A stretch of 64,000 nt of DNA from an uncultured Candidatus Saccharibacteria bacterium (GCA_964525295.1 CAZGEO010000001.1:572314-636313); one strand, 5' to 3'; counted from the stretch's first letter, positions 3,407-27,325 are shown. Translations and numbers: made by a program. The notes: generated by a model not told the origin, from the sequence alone.

Positions 3407-5464
3407 ATGCGTTTTCAACTATCTTCCCAGTACAAACCAATGGGCGATCAGCCCCAAGCTATCGATAAATTGGTATCAGGTATACAGAATGGTCATAAAG
3501 ATCAAGTTCTGTTAGGGGTTACCGGTAGTGGAAAAACGTTTACGGTTGCGAATGTTATTGAAAGAATCCAAAAGCCGACGTTGATTATTTCACACAACAA
3601 AACACTTGCTGCCCAACTGTATCAGGAATTCAAAGAATTTTTTCCGAAAAACGCGGTGCAATATTTCGTTAGTTACTACGATTATTATCAGCCTGAAGCG
3701 TATATTCCACAGCGAGATCTATATATCGAAAAAGATGCCGATATTAACGAAGAAATTGATAAACTCCGTTTAGCGACTTCAACTGCACTTATGACACGTA
3801 AAGATGTTATCGTAATTGCGTCAGTATCAGCGATTTACAACATCGGTTCACCACAAACTTATAAAAATGCGATGGTTTTGGTCGAAAAAGGCAAAGGTGA
3901 AGGCATGCAGAAGTTACAGGTGGGACTGCTTGGTCTTTATTATGAAAGAAACGAAATTGATTTCAAGCGTGGTACTTTCAGAGTTCGTGGGAATGCTATA
4001 GATATTCATGTTTCTTATGCCGATCTAGGCGTTCGAGTCATATTTAATGGTGATATTGTCGCTAGCATGGAACTTTTCAATCCGGTGGATGGATCACCAA
4101 TTACCGATTACGATTATTACATTGACATACTTGTTGAGACCGAAGGTCAGACAATTGAAAAGGTCGTTCTTTACCCATCTAAGCATTATGTTATGGATCC
4201 GGCAGCTCAAGATGAAGCCGTTAAAAGAATTGAAGAAGATACGGTAAAGCGAGTTAAAGAGCTCGAAGCGCAAGGTAAAATGATTGAAGCACATAGATTA
4301 ACGCAGAAAGTTAAATACGACATGGAAATGATCCGAGAGATCGGTTACTGTAAAGGAATCGAAAACTACTCGTATTACTTTGACGGTCGTAAACTTGGCG
4401 AGCCACCTTATTCTTTAATGGATTACTTTCCAAAAGATGATTATTTGCTTATTATCGATGAATCACACATTACGATTCCGCAAGTGCGCGGAATGTTTAA
4501 CGGAGATCAAGCCCGAAAAGAAACATTAGTTGAGTATGGTTTCAGACTGCCAACGGCAAAAGAGAATAGACCTCTCCGATTCTCTGAGTTTGAAGAGAGA
4601 ATGGGAAACACTTTGTATCTTTCGGCAACTCCAGAAGAATATGAACTTAAAAAGGCAGGTAAAGAGAATATTGCAGAGCAATTGATTAGGCCAACTGGTT
4701 TGGTTGATCCAATCGTTGAAGTTCGACCAGTTGAAAATCAGATTCAAGATCTCGTTGGCGAAATTAAGAAAACAGTTGAAAAAGGAGAACGCGTGTTAGT
4801 TACCACCTTAACAAAGCGAATGGCCGAAGATTTGTCGCAGTATTTGAAAGATGGTGGCGTGCGAGTTACATACCTACACTCGGATATCGATACGATGGAT
4901 AGAACCGATATTTTGGCCGATTTGCGCGCTGGGAATTATGACGTTTTAGTTGGTATTAATCTGCTTCGTGAAGGGCTCGATTTGCCAGAAGTGTCGTTAG
5001 TTGCGATTCTTGATGCAGATAAAGAAGGATTTCTTCGCTCGCGAACTAGTTTAATTCAAACAATGGGTCGTGCTGCTCGTCATGTAAATGGTCATGTGAT
5101 TTTGTATGCAGACAAAAAAACTCACAGCATGCAAGAAGCCTTGTTCGAGGTAGAGCGCCGTCGAAAAATTCAGTTGGAATATAACGAAGCTCATGGAATT
5201 ACCCCGGCTTCTATTCAAAAGGCAATTCGACAGCGAATTTTGCCAAAGCAAGTCGAAGATACTGATGAAGCCCGTGAGAAGAGAATTCATACAGTATTGG
5301 GTAAAGACGTTGAAATCATGATCGCCTCGTACAGAACTATGCCTAGAAAAGAGCAAAAAGAGACTATCGATTGGCTCAATAAAGAGATGAAAAAAGAAGC
5401 GTTAGCGCTCAACTTTGAGAAAGCAATAGAATTGAGAGAGTTGATAAAGACGCTGAAGGAATAG
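3407..5464 (+). CDS. uvrB: Excinuclease ABC subunit B
   Basis: GVTGSGKT Walker A, YYDYYQPEAY beta-hairpin region, helicase motifs, C-terminal UVR domain (ALNFEKAIELRELI). Confidence 0.95.
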   Translation: MRFQLSSQYKPMGDQPQAIDKLVSGIQNGHKDQVLLGVTGSGKTFTVANVIERIQKPTLIISHNKTLAAQLYQEFKEFFPKNAVQYFVSYYDYYQPEAYIPQRDLYIEKDADINEEIDKLRLATSTALMTRKDVIVIASVSAIYNIGSPQTYKNAMVLVEKGKGEGMQKLQVGLLGLYYERNEIDFKRGTFRVRGNAIDIHVSYADLGVRVIFNGDIVASMELFNPVDGSPITDYDYYIDILVETEGQTIEKVVLYPSKHYVMDPAAQDEAVKRIEEDTVKRVKELEAQGKMIEAHRLTQKVKYDMEMIREIGYCKGIENYSYYFDGRKLGEPPYSLMDYFPKDDYLLIIDESHITIPQVRGMFNGDQARKETLVEYGFRLPTAKENRPLRFSEFEERMGNTLYLSATPEEYELKKAGKENIAEQLIRPTGLVDPIVEVRPVENQIQDLVGEIKKTVEKGERVLVTTLTKRMAEDLSQYLKDGGVRVTYLHSDIDTMDRTDILADLRAGNYDVLVGINLLREGLDLPEVSLVAILDADKEGFLRSRTSLIQTMGRAARHVNGHVILYADKKTHSMQEALFEVERRRKIQLEYNEAHGITPASIQKAIRQRILPKQVEDTDEAREKRIHTVLGKDVEIMIASYRTMPRKEQKETIDWLNKEMKKEALALNFEKAIELRELIKTLKE

Positions 5465-5551
5465 AGTAAGGCGCAAAAGTGTTTATTCGAGAAATCAATC
5501 AAAGAACTAGGTCGTTTGGCAGTAGTCGTATTTGCTTTATTTTTCGGTAAT

Positions 5552-5768
5552 TGTATAATTATGTAATGCGTTGACGACGAATTACACGTCTGAGCAGAGG
5601 GAAGAAATCGCTAAAACATGAAAATGCAGGCGAAAGTAGAACCCTCCGGGTAAGCCCGAAAAAGCTGTAAAAAGCGCTTGCGCACTCTATTTTCAGAGTG
5701 ATGCAGGCGGAAGCAAGGTGGTACCGCGTAACCATCGCCCTTGCCAGCATAATTTTTATGTTCTGGCG
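5552..5768 (+). promoter_or_regulatory. T-box riboswitch leader (putative Tyr specifier UAC) with intrinsic terminator, upstream of tyrS
   Basis: TGTATAAT -10 at 5552-5559. UAC at 5583-5585 in a GAAUUACACG context. Conserved T-box 14-mer AAGGUGGUACCGCG at 5715-5728. Terminator hairpin GCAAGGUGGU...ACCAUCGCCCUUGC followed by an AUAAUUUUUAU U-run (5751-5758). Confidence 0.6.
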
Positions 5769-7103
5769 ATGACAACTCAAGAAAAAGTTGAACTTATCAA
5801 ATCAATTGCTGAAGGTGGTGGTGATTTAGTCGGTGTAGATGAATTACCCGCCCTTCTCGAGTCAGGTGAAAAACTGTACACCTACGATGGATTTGAGCCT
5901 TCTGGGCAAATGCACATCTCGCAGGGCATAATGCGCGCGATCAATGTTAACAAGATGATTCAGGCCGGTTTTACCTTCAGGATGTGGGTTGCAGACTGGT
6001 TTGGTTATTTGAATAACAAAATGGGTGGTGATTTAGAAAAGATTAAGACCGTGGGTCGCTATTTTATCGAAATTTGGCGTGCAAGCGGTATGGATTTAGA
6101 GCATACTGAATTTTTGTGGACTTCGGATGCGGTGAAAGATCCCTCGTACTGGGAAACTGTTATGCGTGTTGCGAAGTCGATTACGTTGAAACGTGCTATT
6201 CGAACGACTCAGATTATGGGAAGAAATGAGAGTGATGATTTATCCGCAGGTATGATTTTTTACCCTTGTATGCAGGTTACTGATATTTTCCACGTTATGA
6301 AAGCGCAAGTAACGCAACTTGGGTTAGATCAGCAGAAAGCGAATATACTGGCCCGCGAAGTCGGCGAAGAATTGGGATATTGGAAGCCAGTCATCGTAAG
6401 TCATGGAATGTTACAGGGGTTACAGAAACCAGTGGAGAAAAAAGTTAGTTCATTAGCCTTAGGAAATCTAAGTAATGGTGATTTACTCTACGATGGAGAA
6501 AAGGCACAGGTTTATGTAACCTGGAAAGAACCGTTTACTGTAGCATTTGTAGTGAATGGTCAAACGCCTCGTTCCGTTGAACTTGAAGTGGGTAAAGCTG
6601 AGAAGTATTTTGATATCGAGTTAACACTTCGCATTGACGATACCCTAGAAGTCGCTGAAAACACCGAGGCACGCAAACTCTCTATGAAAATGAGCAAGTC
6701 AATGCCTGAATCCTCGATCTTTATGACTGATACTCCTGACCAAGTCGTACAAAAAATTCGCAAGGCGTATTGCCCTGAAGGAATCGTCGAAGATAACCCA
6801 ATTTTGGCGTATTGTAAGTATATTATCTTCAACGCACACTTTTTGAAGCGAAAAACACCGCTACTAACTGATGGAAAATTCGTAGTGAAGCGACCTGAAA
6901 AATTCGGTGGTGATGTCGTTTACTCGAATTATGAGGAGCTGGAAAGGTCATATGTCGCAAAGGAATTGTTCCCGTTAGACCTCAAAAATGCAGTGGTTGA
7001 GTATTTGAATGAGCTCATTCGCCCTGTTCGTGAACATTTCGAGAATAATGTCGAAGCTAAGGCAATTCTTGAGAAGGTACAGAGCTATCAGGTGACAAGA
7101 TAG
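5769..7103 (+). CDS. tyrS: Tyrosyl-tRNA synthetase, archaeal/eukaryal type with an internal insertion
   Basis: GFEPSGQMHISQG (HIGH-region variant), VADWFGYLNNK, KMSKS. The C-terminal half (KAYCPEGIVEDNPI...KRPEKFGGDVVYSNYEELE...LDLKNAV) matches Methanocaldococcus-type TyrRS closely. Start placed at the ATG after the T-box terminator rather than the ORF-track start at 5718. Confidence 0.8.
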   Translation: MTTQEKVELIKSIAEGGGDLVGVDELPALLESGEKLYTYDGFEPSGQMHISQGIMRAINVNKMIQAGFTFRMWVADWFGYLNNKMGGDLEKIKTVGRYFIEIWRASGMDLEHTEFLWTSDAVKDPSYWETVMRVAKSITLKRAIRTTQIMGRNESDDLSAGMIFYPCMQVTDIFHVMKAQVTQLGLDQQKANILAREVGEELGYWKPVIVSHGMLQGLQKPVEKKVSSLALGNLSNGDLLYDGEKAQVYVTWKEPFTVAFVVNGQTPRSVELEVGKAEKYFDIELTLRIDDTLEVAENTEARKLSMKMSKSMPESSIFMTDTPDQVVQKIRKAYCPEGIVEDNPILAYCKYIIFNAHFLKRKTPLLTDGKFVVKRPEKFGGDVVYSNYEELERSYVAKELFPLDLKNAVVEYLNELIRPVREHFENNVEAKAILEKVQSYQVTR

Positions 7104-7180
7104 TTTCACGAACTAAGAGACGATTCTGTTCCACAATGTAGGCTTAGTTGTGGATAACTAAATTGAATCGGGAAGATATA

Positions 7181-7927
7181 ATGCAAACTTTCGGCGTTTT
7201 TGGTCACGGACGATTTGGCTCGTTATGGGCAGAACTTCTTACGCGCTTCGGTGAAGTATATGTGTATGAACCATTACCTAAAAAGCGAGTTGATCATAAT
7301 GAACGGCTTCATTTTTGTGAATCACCTCAAGAAATATTTGCTTCTGCGAATATAATTTTTTACGCCGTTCCAATTTCACTTTTTGAAGAAATTGTTCGTG
7401 AACATGCGTCATTAATGAACAATCTGCACGTCATTTATGATTTGCTGTCAGTTAAACTACATGCAAAAAAAGTCTTTGATTCATTTTTACCAGAAGGCGT
7501 TGAAGCAGGGTTACTGCATCCAATGTTTGGGCCAGATAGTGCAAAAGCGCACGGCGTACCTGGGCTCCCAATTGTTGTGGATAAGTATCGGCTTACGTCG
7601 GCAAATTATGAAAAAATGATTGGTATATTTTCACAATTGCAGTTAAAAGTGATTGAACTCACTGCTGATGAGCATGATCGTTTGGCAGCACGATCTCAAG
7701 GAGTTGCCCACTTTATCGGAAGAGTTCTTGCTGAATTCGGTTTCGAATCTACGGAAATCGATACCATGGGAGCGAAGAAGCTAAATGAGATTACGGAACA
7801 GACCTGTAACGATACCTGGCAGCTTTTTACTGATTTGCAGACAAAAAATCCGTATACCGAAAAAATGCGAAAAGACCTGCAAAAAGCATTTGAAAAAGTT
7901 ACAGAAAAGATTACAACGGCCCCATAA
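7181..7927 (+). CDS. tyrA: Prephenate/arogenate dehydrogenase
   Basis: N-terminal NAD-binding GVFGHGRFGS, then a TyrA-like catalytic region (HPMFGP). Start chosen at MQTFGVFG with GGGAAG RBS; the ORF track starts 33 nt earlier. Confidence 0.7.
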   Translation: MQTFGVFGHGRFGSLWAELLTRFGEVYVYEPLPKKRVDHNERLHFCESPQEIFASANIIFYAVPISLFEEIVREHASLMNNLHVIYDLLSVKLHAKKVFDSFLPEGVEAGLLHPMFGPDSAKAHGVPGLPIVVDKYRLTSANYEKMIGIFSQLQLKVIELTADEHDRLAARSQGVAHFIGRVLAEFGFESTEIDTMGAKKLNEITEQTCNDTWQLFTDLQTKNPYTEKMRKDLQKAFEKVTEKITTAP

Positions 7928-8306
7928 ATTGCAAGCAATTCTTGTCAGGATCAAGAATTGTTAGCGCATAACGTGTTTCGCCTGGAACAAATTCGTTCAT
8001 TGCAAAAATGTCAGCCACAATTTCTGTTCGGGGATCATTTTTTACTTTGACCGCGACATCTTGAACCGAATCTACGTAGATATTCAGCATCGTTCGCAGG
8101 GATTCCTTATTTTGCCCGTGAATTTCAGAGTGATTCGCCAGCCAAATTTCATACCCTGGTGCGACTTCTACGGTATAGCCGTAATCTTTGGGAAGTTCGA
8201 GCTTTTTAAGTATTTTGAAGCCTAGTGTTTCAGTATAGAAAGTGATTAGTTTCTCTACATCTTCTGTAAAAATGAAAGCCTTAAACTTTTGATAGGTCAT
8301 AATCAT
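7911..8306 (-). CDS. VOC/glyoxalase-bleomycin resistance family protein
   Basis: About 130 aa with the paired beta-alpha-beta-beta-beta signature (FYTETLGF..., EVAPGYEIWL). Confidence 0.6.
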   Translation of the reverse strand: MIMTYQKFKAFIFTEDVEKLITFYTETLGFKILKKLELPKDYGYTVEVAPGYEIWLANHSEIHGQNKESLRTMLNIYVDSVQDVAVKVKNDPRTEIVADIFAMNEFVPGETRYALTILDPDKNCLQFMGPL

Positions 8307-26147: not shown

Positions 26148-26569
26148 GGGGGTGACCGGCTTAGACGGTTGTTCATTGAAAGAAGTAGCCAAGCGGGCTG
26201 ATATCCCGTAAATCTATCAAAGCACCATAAAGTGCCAAGTCAAACCTTTCTGAGAAAGTCGCAGCTTTTTTGAACTCAGCAGTTAAGGCTTTTGCCTCAG
26301 TTGTTGCAGCTCCAAAGCTTGCAGTCTCACTCGTCTCTTAATGACGTAACTGGTTTCTCCTCCTTTGCATAACAAGCGGGAAACCAGGAGTAATAAGGTT
26401 TATGCCGACACGCTATCAAGCTCCGCTGGGGTAGAGTGTTGTACATGTGCGGGCGAGTATTCCTTTTTTGCTCGATTTTCAGGGGATACTTAGTACTCAA
26501 CTCGAGCTGTCTTGGGAGAGACTTCTTTTTAAGAAGAGCTGCACAGGGGTTCGATTCCCCTCACCTCCA
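26148..26569 (+). ncRNA. ssrA: tmRNA (transfer-messenger RNA)
   Basis: 5' GGGGGUGA pairs with 3' UCACCUCC to give a 7-bp acceptor stem with a G3:U wobble (tRNA-Ala identity), followed by a discriminator A. T-arm AGGGGUUCGAUUCCCCU. 5' GGCUUAGACGG resembles the GGAUUCGACGG box. Internal frame ...AAAGUC GCA GCU... is followed by UAAUGA stops and a CUGGUUUC/GAAACCAG helix. Confidence 0.65.
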
Positions 26570-27325
26570 TTTTTTCAACACTCTCGTTCGCTACAAAAAA
26601 GAAACCAGTTCTTTTTTGTTACGCTCACGATCCGTGTAGAAGAAAATGGAGCGAACGGGAGGGGTGAAAAATAGGAAAATGTTGGGGAAGCGAAACGCAA
26701 GCGAGAATGTACTGACGTACATTCGAACGAAGCGGGGGTCGAGGAGCGGAAAATTTTCTAGCGAAGCGACGGAAATGACCGCGAGGTGACCGATTCCCCT
26801 GACTTTTGAAAACGCTTCGAAAGAGTTTTTTATGACGTCGGCGACCATTACCCATTCGGGCAAAAAGAGGCTTTTCAAAACGATAATGTTCGATGCTATC
26901 GCCTGAAAGTATAACCTTATCGTTTACTGTGAATGGTAAAGAATCTTCTTGTGTTGCACTACTATCAAGCGAAGTAGTGCAGTCAGAAGCGCGAGCGCGT
27001 AGGGGCTCGCGCTCTTCTTCCTGCAAGCCATGAGAAACAATCGACTGTCTCTTTCCTTTTATTCTTGAGGAATTTGAGTCACTCGAAATTTTGCCCATAA
27101 GTAGTGTGCCTACACGAGTAGATCCAATGGATCATTTCTAATGTAGGGTGCCTAACCTTGAAGGCGGCTACTTACGGTCTGACAGTTCTTTTGAACAGCG
27201 TGATCTTTTTGTTAACTTGTTTTCTCTGGCATCATCACTCCTACCAGCAGAAGGCGCATTCGGCCTTGGGCCTTTATATATTACCCTGTTAAATTGTAAG
27301 CGATAAAATAATTTAGAATAGAGTA

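What the first reader, a model, noticed from the sequence alone, without database searches (positions are those of the whole stretch)
5552..7927. T-box leader controlling an archaeal-type tyrS-tyrA operon
A bacterial T-box leader sits directly upstream of an archaeal/eukaryal-type TyrRS. The leader has the conserved AAGGUGGUACCGCG box, an overlapping terminator hairpin plus U-run, and UAC in the putative specifier region. The TyrRS C-terminal half is near-identical in pattern to Methanocaldococcus TyrRS (KAYCPxGxVExNPI, KRPEKFGGD, LDLKNAV). A prephenate dehydrogenase gene follows immediately. T-box control is normally seen with bacterial-type tyrS, and co-regulating Tyr synthesis (tyrA) with Tyr charging under one Tyr-sensing leader is a tidy regulon.
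Basis: partly seen in the sequence, partly recalled or inferred. Interest (0 to 1): 0.6.

Follow-up and report, generated by a model that had tools for sequence, protein, structure and literature searches.

The report
Minimal tyrosine T-box hiding a start codon
A real tRNA-sensing T-box leader with a drastically shortened first stem sits before an archaeal-type tyrosyl-tRNA synthetase gene in a Dojkabacteria (CPR) genome and most likely controls translation by hiding the start codon rather than by terminating transcription; it is a new example of a known kind of switch.

Summary
Window 5568-5771 is a genuine T-box leader. It has the exact box AAGGUGGUACCGCG (5715-5728), a K-turn, Stem II with an S-turn-like loop, Stem IIA/B, Stem III and an antiterminator-type helix with a UGGU bulge. 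Stem I is "ultrashort": a 4-bp helix capped by a 7-nt loop, AAUUACA, which presents UAC (Tyr) plus A. Rfam therefore scores it at only 40 bits against a gathering score of 93. Nine further distinct orthologous leaders from Dojkabacteria support the fold (97% of cells paired, 16 of 34 pairs with compensatory changes). The competing hairpin has no U-tract. It co-varies with the antiterminator 3' strand. The leader is therefore best read as a translational sequestrator, like actinobacterial ileS T-boxes, in a genome that is SD-poor and rich in leaderless genes. The enzyme is an archaeal/eukaryal-type TyrRS, already published for CPR (Mukai 2017), with an extra all-beta insertion. A TyrA-family dehydrogenase gene follows after 77 nt. 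It is probably co-transcribed, but a translational switch would not control it directly. This is a new member of a known kind, of moderate interest.

The parts
5532..5559 (+). Probable promoter: TATAAT at 5554-5559 preceded by TG (5552-5553), and a weak -35-like TTGCTT at 5532-5537. The inferred transcription start is about 5565-5566, 2-3 nt before Stem I.
   Evidence: Read from the sequence. All nine distinct relatives carry TGnTAnAAT 8-11 nt before the first G-C pair of Stem I. The promoter scan did not list this exact pair, so this is inference from conservation.
5568..5595 (+). Ultrashort Stem I. It consists of a base helix (G5568-C5595, C5569-G5594), a K-turn-like 3-nt bulge plus tandem G.A (5573-5574 with 5592-5593), a 4-bp helix (5576-5579 with 5587-5590) and a 7-nt terminal loop AAUUACA (5580-5586).
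   Evidence: In the Rfam alignment 74 Stem I model positions are replaced by 5 nt. The helix covaries (GC/AU and CG/UA at two pairs), and the GA...GA positions are invariant in 10 sequences.
5583..5586 (+). Specifier UAC (Tyr) plus the conserved 3' purine A, presented in the terminal loop.
   Evidence: UUACA is invariant in 10 leaders. The same register (codon + A directly before the helix) gives AUC before IleRS genes and GUC before ValRS genes in other ultrashort leaders. tRNA-Tyr in related genomes has anticodon GUA.
5597..5646 (+). Stem II. It has a lower helix (5597-5601 with 5642-5646), an S-turn-like internal loop (AAGAAA / AAGUAGAA), an upper helix (5608-5611 with 5630-5633) and an 18-nt apical loop that is specific to this strain.
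   Evidence: All 9 pairs show changes on both sides across the 10 leaders. AAGAA and A-UAGA are invariant.
5647..5666 (+). Stem IIA hairpin (CGG-GUAAGC-CCG, 5647-5658) and the linker segment (5664-5666) that would form the IIB pseudoknot with the IIA loop.
   Evidence: The IIA pairs are invariant. IIB has 2 invariant pairs plus 1 variable pair, and L205 compensates (GUGC/GCAC). The pseudoknot is only weakly tested.
5674..5709 (+). Stem III (extended in this strain).
   Evidence: Base pairs 5675-5678 with 5706-5709 are 100% paired, two of them with compensatory changes.
5713..5744 (+). Antisequestrator (antiterminator-type) helix: GCAAGG-[UGGUACC bulge]-GCG-UAACCAU-CGC-CCUUGC. It contains the T-box sequence AAGGUGGUACCGCG (5715-5728). 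The bulge UGGU is complementary to the 3' ACCA of tRNA-Tyr (A73).
   Evidence: Nine pairs are 100% paired, two with compensatory changes. Discriminator A73 is seen in tRNA-Tyr of L017 and L055.
5733..5771 (+). Sequestrator hairpin (OFF state). CAUCGCC (5733-5739) pairs with GGCGAUG (5765-5771), or alternatively GCCAG (5743-5747) pairs with CUGGC (5763-5767). The AU-rich run lies in the loop. The hairpin is mutually exclusive with the antisequestrator and includes the start codon.
   Evidence: ViennaRNA folds. The equivalent helix is found in all 10 leaders, ending between -6 and +6 of the AUG. Three-way covariation with the antiterminator strands. No U-tract follows it.
5769..7103 (+). tyrS: archaeal/eukaryal-type tyrosyl-tRNA synthetase, 444 aa. 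HIGH is replaced by HISQ and KMSKS is present. There is no SD-like sequence upstream.
   Evidence: The same start was used by independent gene callers.
6432..6668 (+). Lineage-specific insertion of about 75-80 aa in TyrRS, just before KMSKS. It is predicted to be an 8-stranded all-beta domain.
7104..7180 (+). tyrS-tyrA spacer, with no terminator-like site and no significant structure. GGGAAG lies 6 nt before the tyrA ATG.
   Evidence: (z = -0.69).
7181..7927 (+). TyrA-family (prephenate/arogenate) dehydrogenase, 248 aa, probably co-transcribed with tyrS.
   Evidence: The same adjacency is seen in L204 and L208, and the reverse gene order in six other loci.

Best explanation
Window 5568-5771 is a tyrosine-specific T-box riboswitch of the 'ultrashort Stem I' architecture, and it most likely acts on translation initiation of tyrS. 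Transcription starts just upstream (about 5565) from a conserved extended -10 promoter. Uncharged tRNA-Tyr(GUA) pairs its anticodon with UAC in the 7-nt terminal loop of Stem I. Stem II and the IIA/B pseudoknot are inferred to buttress this contact, as in the Mycobacterium ileS T-box, since there is no distal platform for the tRNA elbow. The free 3' ACCA of the tRNA pairs with UGGU in the T-box bulge and stabilises the antisequestrator helix (5713-5744). That leaves the AU-rich segment and the AUG (5745-5771) single-stranded, so ribosomes can start tyrS. When tRNA-Tyr is charged, the antisequestrator is not stabilised. The more stable alternative hairpin then forms: the 3' strand of the antisequestrator (CAUCGCC.. 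/ GCCAG) pairs with CUGGCGAUG and buries the start codon. Shown here: the T-box fold with covariation, the Tyr codon register, the mutually exclusive hairpin that contains the AUG, the absence of a terminator U-tract, and matching tRNA-Tyr features in relatives. Inferred: tRNA binding, the role of Stem II/IIA-B, and the translational read-out. tyrA (7181-7927) is probably on the same transcript. It would be affected only indirectly, through polarity or mRNA stability, if at all.
For: T-box identity: RF00230 matches end to end, E = 1.2e-7, and the T-box sequence is exact. My covariance model R1, built from 10 orthologous leaders, finds a single site in the window at 168 bits, with the next-best hit at 6 bits. 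Fold: on the 10 distinct leaders 97.0% of cells are paired, 16 of 34 pairs change on both sides and the covariation score is 0.318 against 0.152 for shuffles (0/500 shuffles reach it). Slid controls pair only 28-43%. Class: R1 aligns full-length to ultrashort ileS/valS leaders, including high-GC actinobacterial-type ileS, at 60-92 bits, but to long-Stem-I T-boxes at only 25-49 bits. Specificity: UUACA is invariant. The downstream gene is TyrRS. The codon+A register is validated by AUC-IleRS and GUC-ValRS pairs. tRNA-Tyr in L017 and L055 has anticodon GUA and A73, matching UGGU. Translational platform: no + strand terminator-like site. In all 10 leaders the most stable fold uses the antiterminator 3' strand plus a strand ending -6 to +6 of the AUG (-16.7 to -21.1 kcal/mol, against -6.9 to -9.8 for the antiterminator). 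The AUG itself is paired in 7 of 10. There is three-way covariation: C177U goes with G-to-A in both alternative partners in L083 and L208, and G176A goes with C-to-U and a U partner in L206. Only 1-4 U occur in the 8 nt after the helix, except in L204. CPR leaders that do terminate show obvious U6-U7 tracts (L055, L203, L114, L118). The ON-constrained fold leaves the AUG unpaired. Context: the genome is SD-poor (6 of 52 ORFs) and rich in leaderless genes (18 of 52 ORFs with a -10 box 5-9 nt before the ATG, against 0 of 104 controls). Occluding the AUG rather than an SD therefore makes sense.
Against: Nothing here is experimental; tRNA binding and the read-out are inferred. The Rfam score is far below the curated threshold (40.1 against 93). 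How a 30S subunit would find an internal AUG with no SD in this organism is unknown. Ultrashort Stem I does not by itself imply translational control, because CPR ileS/valS leaders with the same Stem I type carry real terminators. One ortholog (L204) has a U-rich tail, UAUUUAUG, after its hairpin. No tRNA-Tyr gene lies in the window, so the ligand features come from related genomes. The unconstrained MFE of the whole leader does not reproduce the T-box fold and instead pairs the strain-specific Stem II apical loop with the AU-rich spacer. The IIB pseudoknot has almost no variation to test.
Confidence: 0.72

Rival explanations
1. One reading: a classical transcription-attenuation T-box, in which the hairpin downstream of the T-box sequence is an intrinsic terminator and uncharged tRNA-Tyr allows read-through into a tyrS-tyrA operon.
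For: Most described T-boxes are transcriptional (review PMC7583486). A stable hairpin competes with the antiterminator. A run of five U exists nearby at 5753-5757. Related CPR Tyr, Ile and Val T-boxes do use terminators. L204 has a U-rich tail.
Against: The U-run is in the hairpin loop, not after the stem. The terminator scan finds nothing on the + strand. The 3' arm ends at the AUG and is followed by ACAACUCA. Nine of 10 orthologs lack a U-tract, while genuine terminators in sister lineages are unmistakable. Stems that include the start codon would leave no room for a read-through transcript to present a free RBS unless the same switch also opens it.
Confidence: 0.1
2. A translational T-box whose repression is converted into transcriptional polarity. 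When the AUG is sequestered, the untranslated tyrS RNA is terminated by Rho or degraded, so that tyrA (7181-7927) is co-regulated after all.
For: There is no terminator or promoter signal in the 77-nt spacer. tyrS-tyrA adjacency downstream of the T-box recurs in L204 and L208, and probably in L082, where the downstream ORF is cut at 60 aa and unidentified. Coupling of translational riboswitches to Rho is established in enterobacteria (general knowledge, not tested here).
Against: No evidence for Rho or rut sites was sought or found. tyrA has its own purine-rich element (GGGAAG) and is 77 nt away, so translation is uncoupled. In six loci tyrA lies upstream of tyrS with no T-box, so co-regulation is not a conserved requirement.
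Confidence: 0.12
3. The loop specifies another amino acid (UUA Leu or ACA Thr in the overlapping registers), or the element is a decaying relic with no regulatory function.
For: The 7-nt loop AAUUACA contains three overlapping codons. Stem I is drastically reduced, and the Rfam score is sub-threshold.
Against: The T-box rule (codon followed by a purine directly before the closing helix) selects UAC-A. The same register gives the cognate codon for IleRS and ValRS leaders, and the gene is TyrRS. Relic status is contradicted by strong conservation with compensatory changes across leaders whose TyrRS proteins are only 63-80% identical.
Confidence: 0.03

Closest known systems
Actinobacterial ileS translational T-boxes with ultrashort/intermediate Stem I (Mycobacterium smegmatis / M. 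tuberculosis ileS; Sherwood et al. 2015, as summarised in PMC7583486 and PMC11297988)
   Same: A K-turn, a few base pairs and the specifier in a terminal loop, with no distal elbow-binding platform. Stem II with an S-turn and the IIA/B pseudoknot are retained. The T-box bulge and helix are conserved. A competing hairpin occludes the ribosome start region instead of terminating transcription. My model of the Tyr leaders aligns full-length to ileS leaders of this type at 60-92 bits.
   Different: The specifier is UAC (Tyr), not AUC (Ile). The host is Dojkabacteria (CPR), not Actinobacteria. The regulated enzyme is an archaeal/eukaryal-type aaRS. In this window the sequestered element is the AUG itself with no recognisable SD, in an SD-poor genome rich in leaderless genes. 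The form may have arisen separately, since a long-Stem-I Tyr T-box exists in another Dojkabacteria genome (L012).
Canonical tyrS T-box (Bacillus subtilis tyrS type; Rfam RF00230)
   Same: A Tyr specifier UAC followed by a purine. Stem II, IIA/B, Stem III, the T-box sequence and a UGGU bulge matching A73. An aaRS gene lies downstream.
   Different: The canonical form has a long Stem I with an internal specifier loop, AG bulge and distal loop, plus an intrinsic terminator with a U-tract, and it controls a bacterial-type TyrRS. Here Stem I is cut to 28 nt, there is no terminator, and the Rfam score is 40 against the threshold of 93.
Long-Stem-I Tyr T-boxes on archaeal-type tyrS in other CPR genomes (L012 Dojkabacteria; L055/L056 Pacebacteria)
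   Same: The same specifier, the same IIA hairpin CGGGUAAGCCCG, the same T-box core and the same TyrRS family downstream.
   Different: These have a full Stem I (Rfam 99.5 bits for L012). L055 and L056 have a GC-rich terminator plus U6 and control a tRNA-Tyr - aminotransferase - tyrS cluster.
Archaeal/eukaryal-type TyrRS with C1-G72 tRNA-Tyr in CPR bacteria (Mukai et al. 2017, PMC5370408)
   Same: The same enzyme family and lineage (WS6/Dojkabacteria is named explicitly). C1-G72 tRNA-Tyr that retains a V-arm is seen in L017. N-terminal OB-fold fusions occur in relatives.
   Different: That paper does not mention any T-box, riboswitch or leader, nor the internal all-beta insertion found in this subclade.

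Membership tests
T-box riboswitch (RF00230) | Match to the curated covariance model at or above the gathering score | tested here: not met
   40.1 bits against a gathering score of 93 (E = 1.2e-7 in a local search), and no hit at curated thresholds. The deficit comes from 74 missing Stem I positions, while all other elements align.
T-box riboswitch (RF00230) | Conserved 14-nt T-box sequence (AGGGUGGNACCGCG) forming the 5' side of an antiterminator-type helix with a 7-nt UGGNACC bulge | tested here: met
   AAGGUGGUACCGCG is at 5715-5728 (13 of 14 positions match). The helix at 5713-5744 is 100% paired in 10 leaders, with 2 compensatory pairs.
T-box riboswitch (RF00230) | Stem I with a K-turn (GA motif) at its base and a specifier codon followed by a purine | tested here: met
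   G.A/A.G positions and a 3-nt bulge are present, with GA...GA invariant. UAC-A is invariant. The K-turn geometry is inferred from the sequence pattern only.
T-box riboswitch (RF00230) | Distal Stem I platform (AG bulge plus distal loop) that stacks on the tRNA elbow | tested here: not met
   Absent: Stem I is 28 nt and ends in the specifier loop. The known ultrashort subclass lacks it too (PMC7583486).
T-box riboswitch (RF00230) | Stem II with S-turn, Stem IIA/B pseudoknot and Stem III | tested here: met
   All 9 Stem II pairs are compensatory. The AAGAAA/AGUAGAA loop is conserved. IIA is invariant. IIB has 2 invariant pairs plus 1 that L205 compensates. The Stem III base covaries. The pseudoknot is only weakly tested.
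T-box riboswitch (RF00230) | Specifier and bulge match the cognate tRNA, and the downstream gene matches the amino acid | tested here: met
   UAC pairs with anticodon GUA, UGGU pairs with A73-CCA in tRNA-Tyr of L017 and L055, and the downstream gene is TyrRS. The tRNA of this genome itself was not available.
T-box riboswitch (RF00230) | Binding of uncharged tRNA and tRNA-dependent switching | not testable with these tools
   This needs EMSA/ITC, in-line probing or SHAPE, and toeprinting.
Translational (class II, ultrashort Stem I) T-boxes | Specifier in a terminal loop of a very short Stem I, with Stem II and IIA/B retained | tested here: met
   There is full-length similarity to ultrashort ileS leaders (60-92 bits).
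Translational (class II, ultrashort Stem I) T-boxes | The alternative helix sequesters the ribosome-binding region (the SD in Actinobacteria) and no terminator U-tract is present | tested here: met
   The helix includes the AUG (window, L082, L083, L208, L005, L006, L205) or ends 3-6 nt before it over SD-like AAGG/AGGG/GUAAGUG (L002, L204, L206). No U-tract occurs in 9 of 10, and there is three-way covariation. It differs from the actinobacterial type in that the window has no SD and the codon itself is buried.
Translational (class II, ultrashort Stem I) T-boxes | Actinobacterial ileS context | tested here: not met
   The host is Candidatus Dojkabacteria, by the names on TyrRS homologs and loci, and the gene is tyrS.
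Archaeal/eukaryal-type TyrRS (NF006330 / PRK08560) | Equivalog model above its cutoff, class Ic catalytic motifs, and no bacterial S4-like C-terminal domain | tested here: met
   323.8 bits against a cutoff of 220. Bacterial tyrS scores 81.6 against 113.8 and trpS scores 94.1 against 176.75. KMSKS is present and HIGH reads HISQ (HIAQ in relatives). The best PDB matches are eukaryotic-type and archaeal TyrRS. The model ends in the helical anticodon-binding domain.
TyrA (prephenate/arogenate dehydrogenase) | PDH_N Rossmann domain plus the TyrA C-terminal domain with the HPMFGP motif | tested here: met
   PF02153 scores 35.6 bits (cutoff 26.5), PF26213 is a precomputed hit, and HPMFGP is in the translation. 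Substrate (prephenate or arogenate) is undetermined, and all NCBIfam equivalogs are below their cutoffs.

The most novel reading that the evidence does not exclude
CPR bacteria carry a largely unannotated population of minimal T-boxes that curated models miss. Within Dojkabacteria a canonical long-Stem-I Tyr T-box was independently whittled down to an ultrashort, roughly 180-nt switch. That switch no longer terminates transcription but buries an SD-less start codon. It would be a convergent re-invention of the actinobacterial ileS solution, adapted to a translation system dominated by leaderless mRNAs, and it senses a tRNA-Tyr that carries archaeal identity elements. If true, it would show that the elbow-binding platform is dispensable for several tRNA specificities and phyla. 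Together with the CPR ileS/valS leaders that combine an ultrashort Stem I with real terminators, it would challenge the view that transcriptional T-boxes need a long Stem I.
Probability: 0.4. Interest if true: 0.6.

Novelty: new member of a known kind. Interest (0 to 1): 0.45.

Why it matters
T-boxes are a paradigm for RNA-RNA recognition. The translational, ultrashort-Stem-I form has so far been characterised mainly as an actinobacterial ileS device. The reviews held here describe translational T-boxes as mostly identified in Actinobacteria. TBDB ran its class II model only on Actinobacteria plus truncated class I hits. I found no paper linking T-box riboswitches with CPR/Patescibacteria. This locus shows the same minimal architecture with a different specificity (Tyr) in a different phylum, upstream of a horizontally acquired archaeal-type synthetase. 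Standard annotation at Rfam's gathering score misses it. It gives a compact natural Tyr-sensing switch, with nine further distinct orthologs, for structural and engineering work. It provides a within-clade series from long to ultrashort Stem I for studying how the platform is lost. It is also a test case for riboswitch control of SD-independent initiation. The regulated enzyme and its unusual tRNA identity were already known, and the mechanism is an extension of a known one, so the advance is incremental rather than categorical.

Tried and rejected
1. The whole-window Rfam scan at gathering thresholds found only the tmRNA. This would wrongly have 'refuted' the T-box, and the permissive local scan resolved it.
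2. The strict motif GGNGNNACCNCG across 80 genome loci found only 3 leaders. Looser inspection and protein look-ups were needed to find more.
3. The first regex for ultrashort stems returned nothing because of greedy matching, so I rewrote it.
4. A terminator reading was rejected.
5. Searching the window for further T-boxes with my own model, filters off, found none.
6. There is no tRNA in the window, so tRNA-Tyr features had to come from relatives.
7. The expression platform of the long-Stem-I Dojkabacteria leader L012 could not be resolved: no terminator and no clear sequestrator in its 180-nt AT-rich spacer.
8. The strain-specific complementarity between the Stem II apical loop and the AU-rich spacer dominates the free MFE. 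It is not conserved in relatives by my reading of the sequences, so I did not build it into the mechanism.
9. A 4-codon uORF (AUGUUCUGGCGAUGA, 5757-5771) overlaps the tyrS start and is present only in the window and L082, so I set it aside.
10. Fold search of the TyrRS insertion gave only generic beta-sandwich matches, and Pfam found nothing.
11. Sherwood 2015 and Vitreschak 2008 could not be read. Statements about them rest on reviews that cite them and on my own recollection.


Full report
WHAT IS THERE. The region 5300-8100 holds, on the + strand, the end of uvrB (3407-5464), a 304-nt intergenic region, a 444-aa ORF (5769-7103), a 77-nt spacer and a 248-aa ORF (7181-7927). A scan of the whole window with Rfam at curated thresholds reported only a tmRNA (26148-26572) and no T-box. 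A permissive scan of 5440-5820 gave an end-to-end match of RF00230 at 5562-5745, E = 1.2e-7, at 40.1 bits against a gathering score of 93. The alignment explains the shortfall: 74 consensus positions of Stem I are replaced by 5 nt, while Stem II, IIA, Stem III and the T-box helix all align.

COMPARATIVE EVIDENCE FOR THE LEADER. I collected loci that encode relatives of the TyrRS from species-representative genomes and contigs that encode the closest homologs. Ten distinct leaders share the architecture: window, L082, L083, L002, L005, L006, L204, L205, L206 and L208. Their TyrRS proteins are 63-80% identical to the window's. I wrote the ON-state structure by hand from the window sequence and counted it on the MAFFT alignment. 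It has 97.0% of cells paired, 16 of 34 pairs with changes on both sides, and a covariation score of 0.318 against 0.152 for shuffles (0/500). Sliding the partners drops pairing to 28-43%. Caveat: the structure was derived from one of the sequences, which favours it on 'cells paired'. The compensatory counts are less affected by this.

STEM I ANATOMY. Stem I is a two-pair base helix, a 3-nt bulge, tandem G.A (a K-turn pattern, all four positions invariant), one non-canonical position, a 4-bp helix that covaries (GACG/CGUC, GGUG/CACC, GGCG/CGCC) and a 7-nt loop NNUUACA with UUACA invariant. The codon register (codon + A directly before the helix) gives UAC = Tyr.

MODEL SEARCHES. A covariance model built from these leaders (R1) finds only this site in the 64-kb window with filters off: 168 bits, with the next-best hit at 6 bits.

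RELATION TO KNOWN CLASSES. I scanned metagenomes for the IIA hairpin plus the T-box core, a pattern blind to Stem I and to the downstream gene. Many are high-GC leaders with UGA-(U)CCGG-CUAUCA-CCGG(G)-GAG upstream of IleRS genes, which is the actinobacterial ileS ultrashort type. Low-GC contigs carry the same design with AUC before IleRS (L114, L203) and GUC before ValRS (L111, L118, L199). This validates the codon register used for UAC. R1 aligns full-length to these ultrashort leaders at 60-92 bits, but to long-Stem-I T-boxes at only 25-49 bits. The window's leader therefore belongs, by architecture, with the ultrashort class described for Actinobacteria (reviews PMC7583486 and PMC11297988). 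The IleRS of L203 has named relatives in Patescibacteria, WWE3, Nomurabacteria and Dojkabacteria, so ultrashort T-boxes occur in several CPR lineages. Another Dojkabacteria genome (L012) has a canonical long-Stem-I Tyr T-box upstream of the insert-less TyrRS, at 99.5 Rfam bits, above threshold. Two Pacebacteria loci (L055, L056) have a long-Stem-I Tyr T-box with a textbook terminator. The ultrashort Tyr form therefore looks derived within this group, although no tree was built to test that.

THE EXPRESSION PLATFORM. The consensus scan finds no terminator-like site on the + strand of the leader. Folding the discriminator-to-start segment of each of the 10 leaders gives the same answer every time. 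The most stable structure (-16.7 to -21.1 kcal/mol) pairs the 3' strand of the antiterminator-type helix (CAUCGCCCUUGNC...) with a strand that ends between -6 and +6 of the A of the AUG. The antiterminator-type helix alone is worth only -6.9 to -9.8. In the window CAUCGCC (5733-5739) pairs with GGCGAUG (5765-5771), or alternatively GCCAG pairs with CUGGC. The AUG is itself paired in 7 of 10 leaders, often with the conserved CAU of the antiterminator loop. In the other three the helix covers SD-like AAGG/AGGG/GUAAGUG and ends 3-6 nt before the AUG. Only L204 has a U-rich tail (UAUUUAUG), and that tail contains its start codon.

EVIDENCE FOR A SWITCH. The shared strand and both of its alternative partners change together. 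C177U in L083 and L208 is matched by G-to-A in the antiterminator 5' strand and by G-to-A in the start-proximal strand. G176A in L206 is matched by C-to-U and by a U partner. That is the pattern expected of a bistable switch. As a positive control for what terminators look like in these organisms, L055, L203, L114 and L118 show GC-rich stems followed by U6-U7. With the ON structure enforced, the AUG region of the window is unpaired, and in the free MFE it is paired. I therefore read the platform as a sequestrator that acts on translation initiation.

WHY THE START CODON RATHER THAN AN SD. Only 6 of 52 long ORFs in the window have any SD-like 4-mer upstream. In contrast, 18 of 52 have a -10 hexamer ending 5-9 nt before the ATG (13 of them at exactly 5 nt), against 0 of 104 control windows. 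Many genes here therefore appear to be leaderless. tyrS itself looks leaderless in relatives that lack the T-box (L001, L207, L017, L020, L021, L046). The window's tyrS has no SD (uucuggcgAUG). A switch that must gate an internal, SD-less start site can do so by burying the codon and its surroundings. This is inference. How 30S subunits select such a site in this organism is unknown.

THE LIGAND. The window has no tRNA gene. In related loci, tRNA-Tyr has anticodon GUA, discriminator A73 (complementary to the U of the UGGU bulge) and a C1-G72 pair. It has a long variable arm in Dojkabacteria (L017) and a short one in Pacebacteria (L055). This agrees with Mukai 2017.

tyrA. The spacer 7104-7180 has no terminator-like site and no significant structure (z = -0.69), so co-transcription from the T-box promoter is plausible. 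tyrA lies downstream of T-box-tyrS also in L204 and L208. L082 has a 60-aa downstream ORF cut by the contig end, whose identity was not determined. tyrA is absent downstream in L083, L205 and L206. It lies upstream of tyrS, with no T-box detectable, in L003, L008, L010, L019, L041 and L057. A translational switch would not directly regulate tyrA. Any coupling through Rho polarity or mRNA decay is speculative.

VERDICT. The T-box is real and Tyr-specific (confidence about 0.95). It belongs to the ultrashort-Stem-I architectural class. Its read-out is most likely translational, by start-codon sequestration (about 0.7). The enzyme part of the finding is already in the literature. I found no paper in the searchable library that links T-box riboswitches with CPR/Patescibacteria. 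TBDB's class II search was applied only to Actinobacteria and to truncated class I hits. The leader is thus probably undescribed, but it is a new member of a known kind rather than a new kind. Interest is moderate (0.45).

Noticed in passing
whole window; e.g. 3407 (+), 31613 (+), 33545 (+), 37475 (+), 33466 (-), 36615 (-), 35427 (-), 31404 (-), 51803 (-), 47603 (-): The genome appears SD-poor and rich in leaderless genes. Only 6 of 52 long ORFs have an SD-like 4-mer upstream. In contrast, 18 of 52 have a TATAAT-like hexamer ending 5-9 nt before the ATG (13 at exactly 5 nt), against 0 of 104 control windows.
   Followed up: partly
window 6432-6668 (TyrRS residues ~222-300): TyrRS carries a subclade-specific insertion of about 75-80 aa just before KMSKS. 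It is predicted to be a confident 8-stranded all-beta domain with no Pfam match and only generic beta-sandwich structural neighbours. Relatives have an N-terminal OB-fold domain instead, or both. These add-ons might handle the V-arm that Dojkabacteria tRNA-Tyr retains; that idea is untested.
   Followed up: partly
L055:1973-4577 and L056:921-~3531 (Pacebacteria): A long-Stem-I Tyr T-box with a GC-rich terminator and U6 is followed directly by a tRNA-Tyr(GUA) gene (C1-G72, A73, short variable arm; Rfam tRNA 52.8 bits). Next come a class I/II aminotransferase and the archaeal-type tyrS. A T-box would thus sit upstream of the gene for its own tRNA ligand.
   Followed up: partly
L203:1596-1790, L114:1692-1876 (-), L118:7944-8108 (-): CPR-type ileS and valS leaders combine an ultrashort Stem I (codon + A in a terminal loop) with clear intrinsic terminators (a stem that reuses the antiterminator 3' strand, followed by U6-U7). 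This runs against the review statement that transcriptional T-boxes generally require a long Stem I.
   Followed up: partly
L081 vs L082 (window-equivalent 3407-7200): A second strain's contig is 98-100% identical through uvrB, the whole leader and the first ~200 nt of tyrS. It then drops abruptly to 53-86% for the rest of tyrS and beyond. This suggests a recombination breakpoint inside tyrS, or an assembly chimera. Mukai 2017 reported TyrRS-domain swapping in WS6-like contigs.
   Followed up: partly
window 5729-5735 with 5717-5722, and 5733-5735 with 5769-5771: The antiterminator loop UAACCAU is conserved as AACCAUC in 7 of 10 leaders. In OFF-state folds its ACCAUC pairs with the T-box GGUGGU, acting as an internal mimic of the tRNA 3' ACCA. 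Its CAU pairs with the AUG start codon in several leaders.
   Followed up: partly
window 5612-5629 and 5746-5762: The strain-specific 18-nt apical loop of Stem II (UAAAACAUGAAAAUGCAG) is complementary to the AU-rich spacer before the AUG (GCAUAAUUUUUAUGUU). The unconstrained MFE pairs the two. The feature is present only in the window and L082 and is unexplained.
   Followed up: partly
window 26148-26572 (+): A tmRNA (RF00023, 78.3 bits) has a large insertion of about 70 nt relative to the model and low alignment accuracy. ARAGORN did not report it.
   Followed up: no
window 5757-5771: A 4-codon uORF (AUG UUC UGG CGA UGA) has a stop codon that overlaps the tyrS AUG (AUGA). It is present only in the window and L082, so it is probably fortuitous.
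   Followed up: no
window 7911-8306 (-): A convergent glyoxalase/bleomycin-resistance-family gene overlaps the 3' end of tyrA by 17 nt. The same neighbour follows tyrA in L208.
   Followed up: no
L017:7456-7527 (+): An AdoCbl-II (cobalamin) riboswitch aptamer above the Rfam threshold (43.9 bits against 36.5) lies in a Dojkabacteria locus.
   Followed up: no
window 5913-5924 (TyrRS residues 49-52): The class I HIGH signature reads HISQ here and HIAQ in nearly all relatives (GQMHI[AS]QG is invariant). By recollection this resembles apicomplexan and plant TyrRS more than the archaeal HLGH.
   Followed up: no
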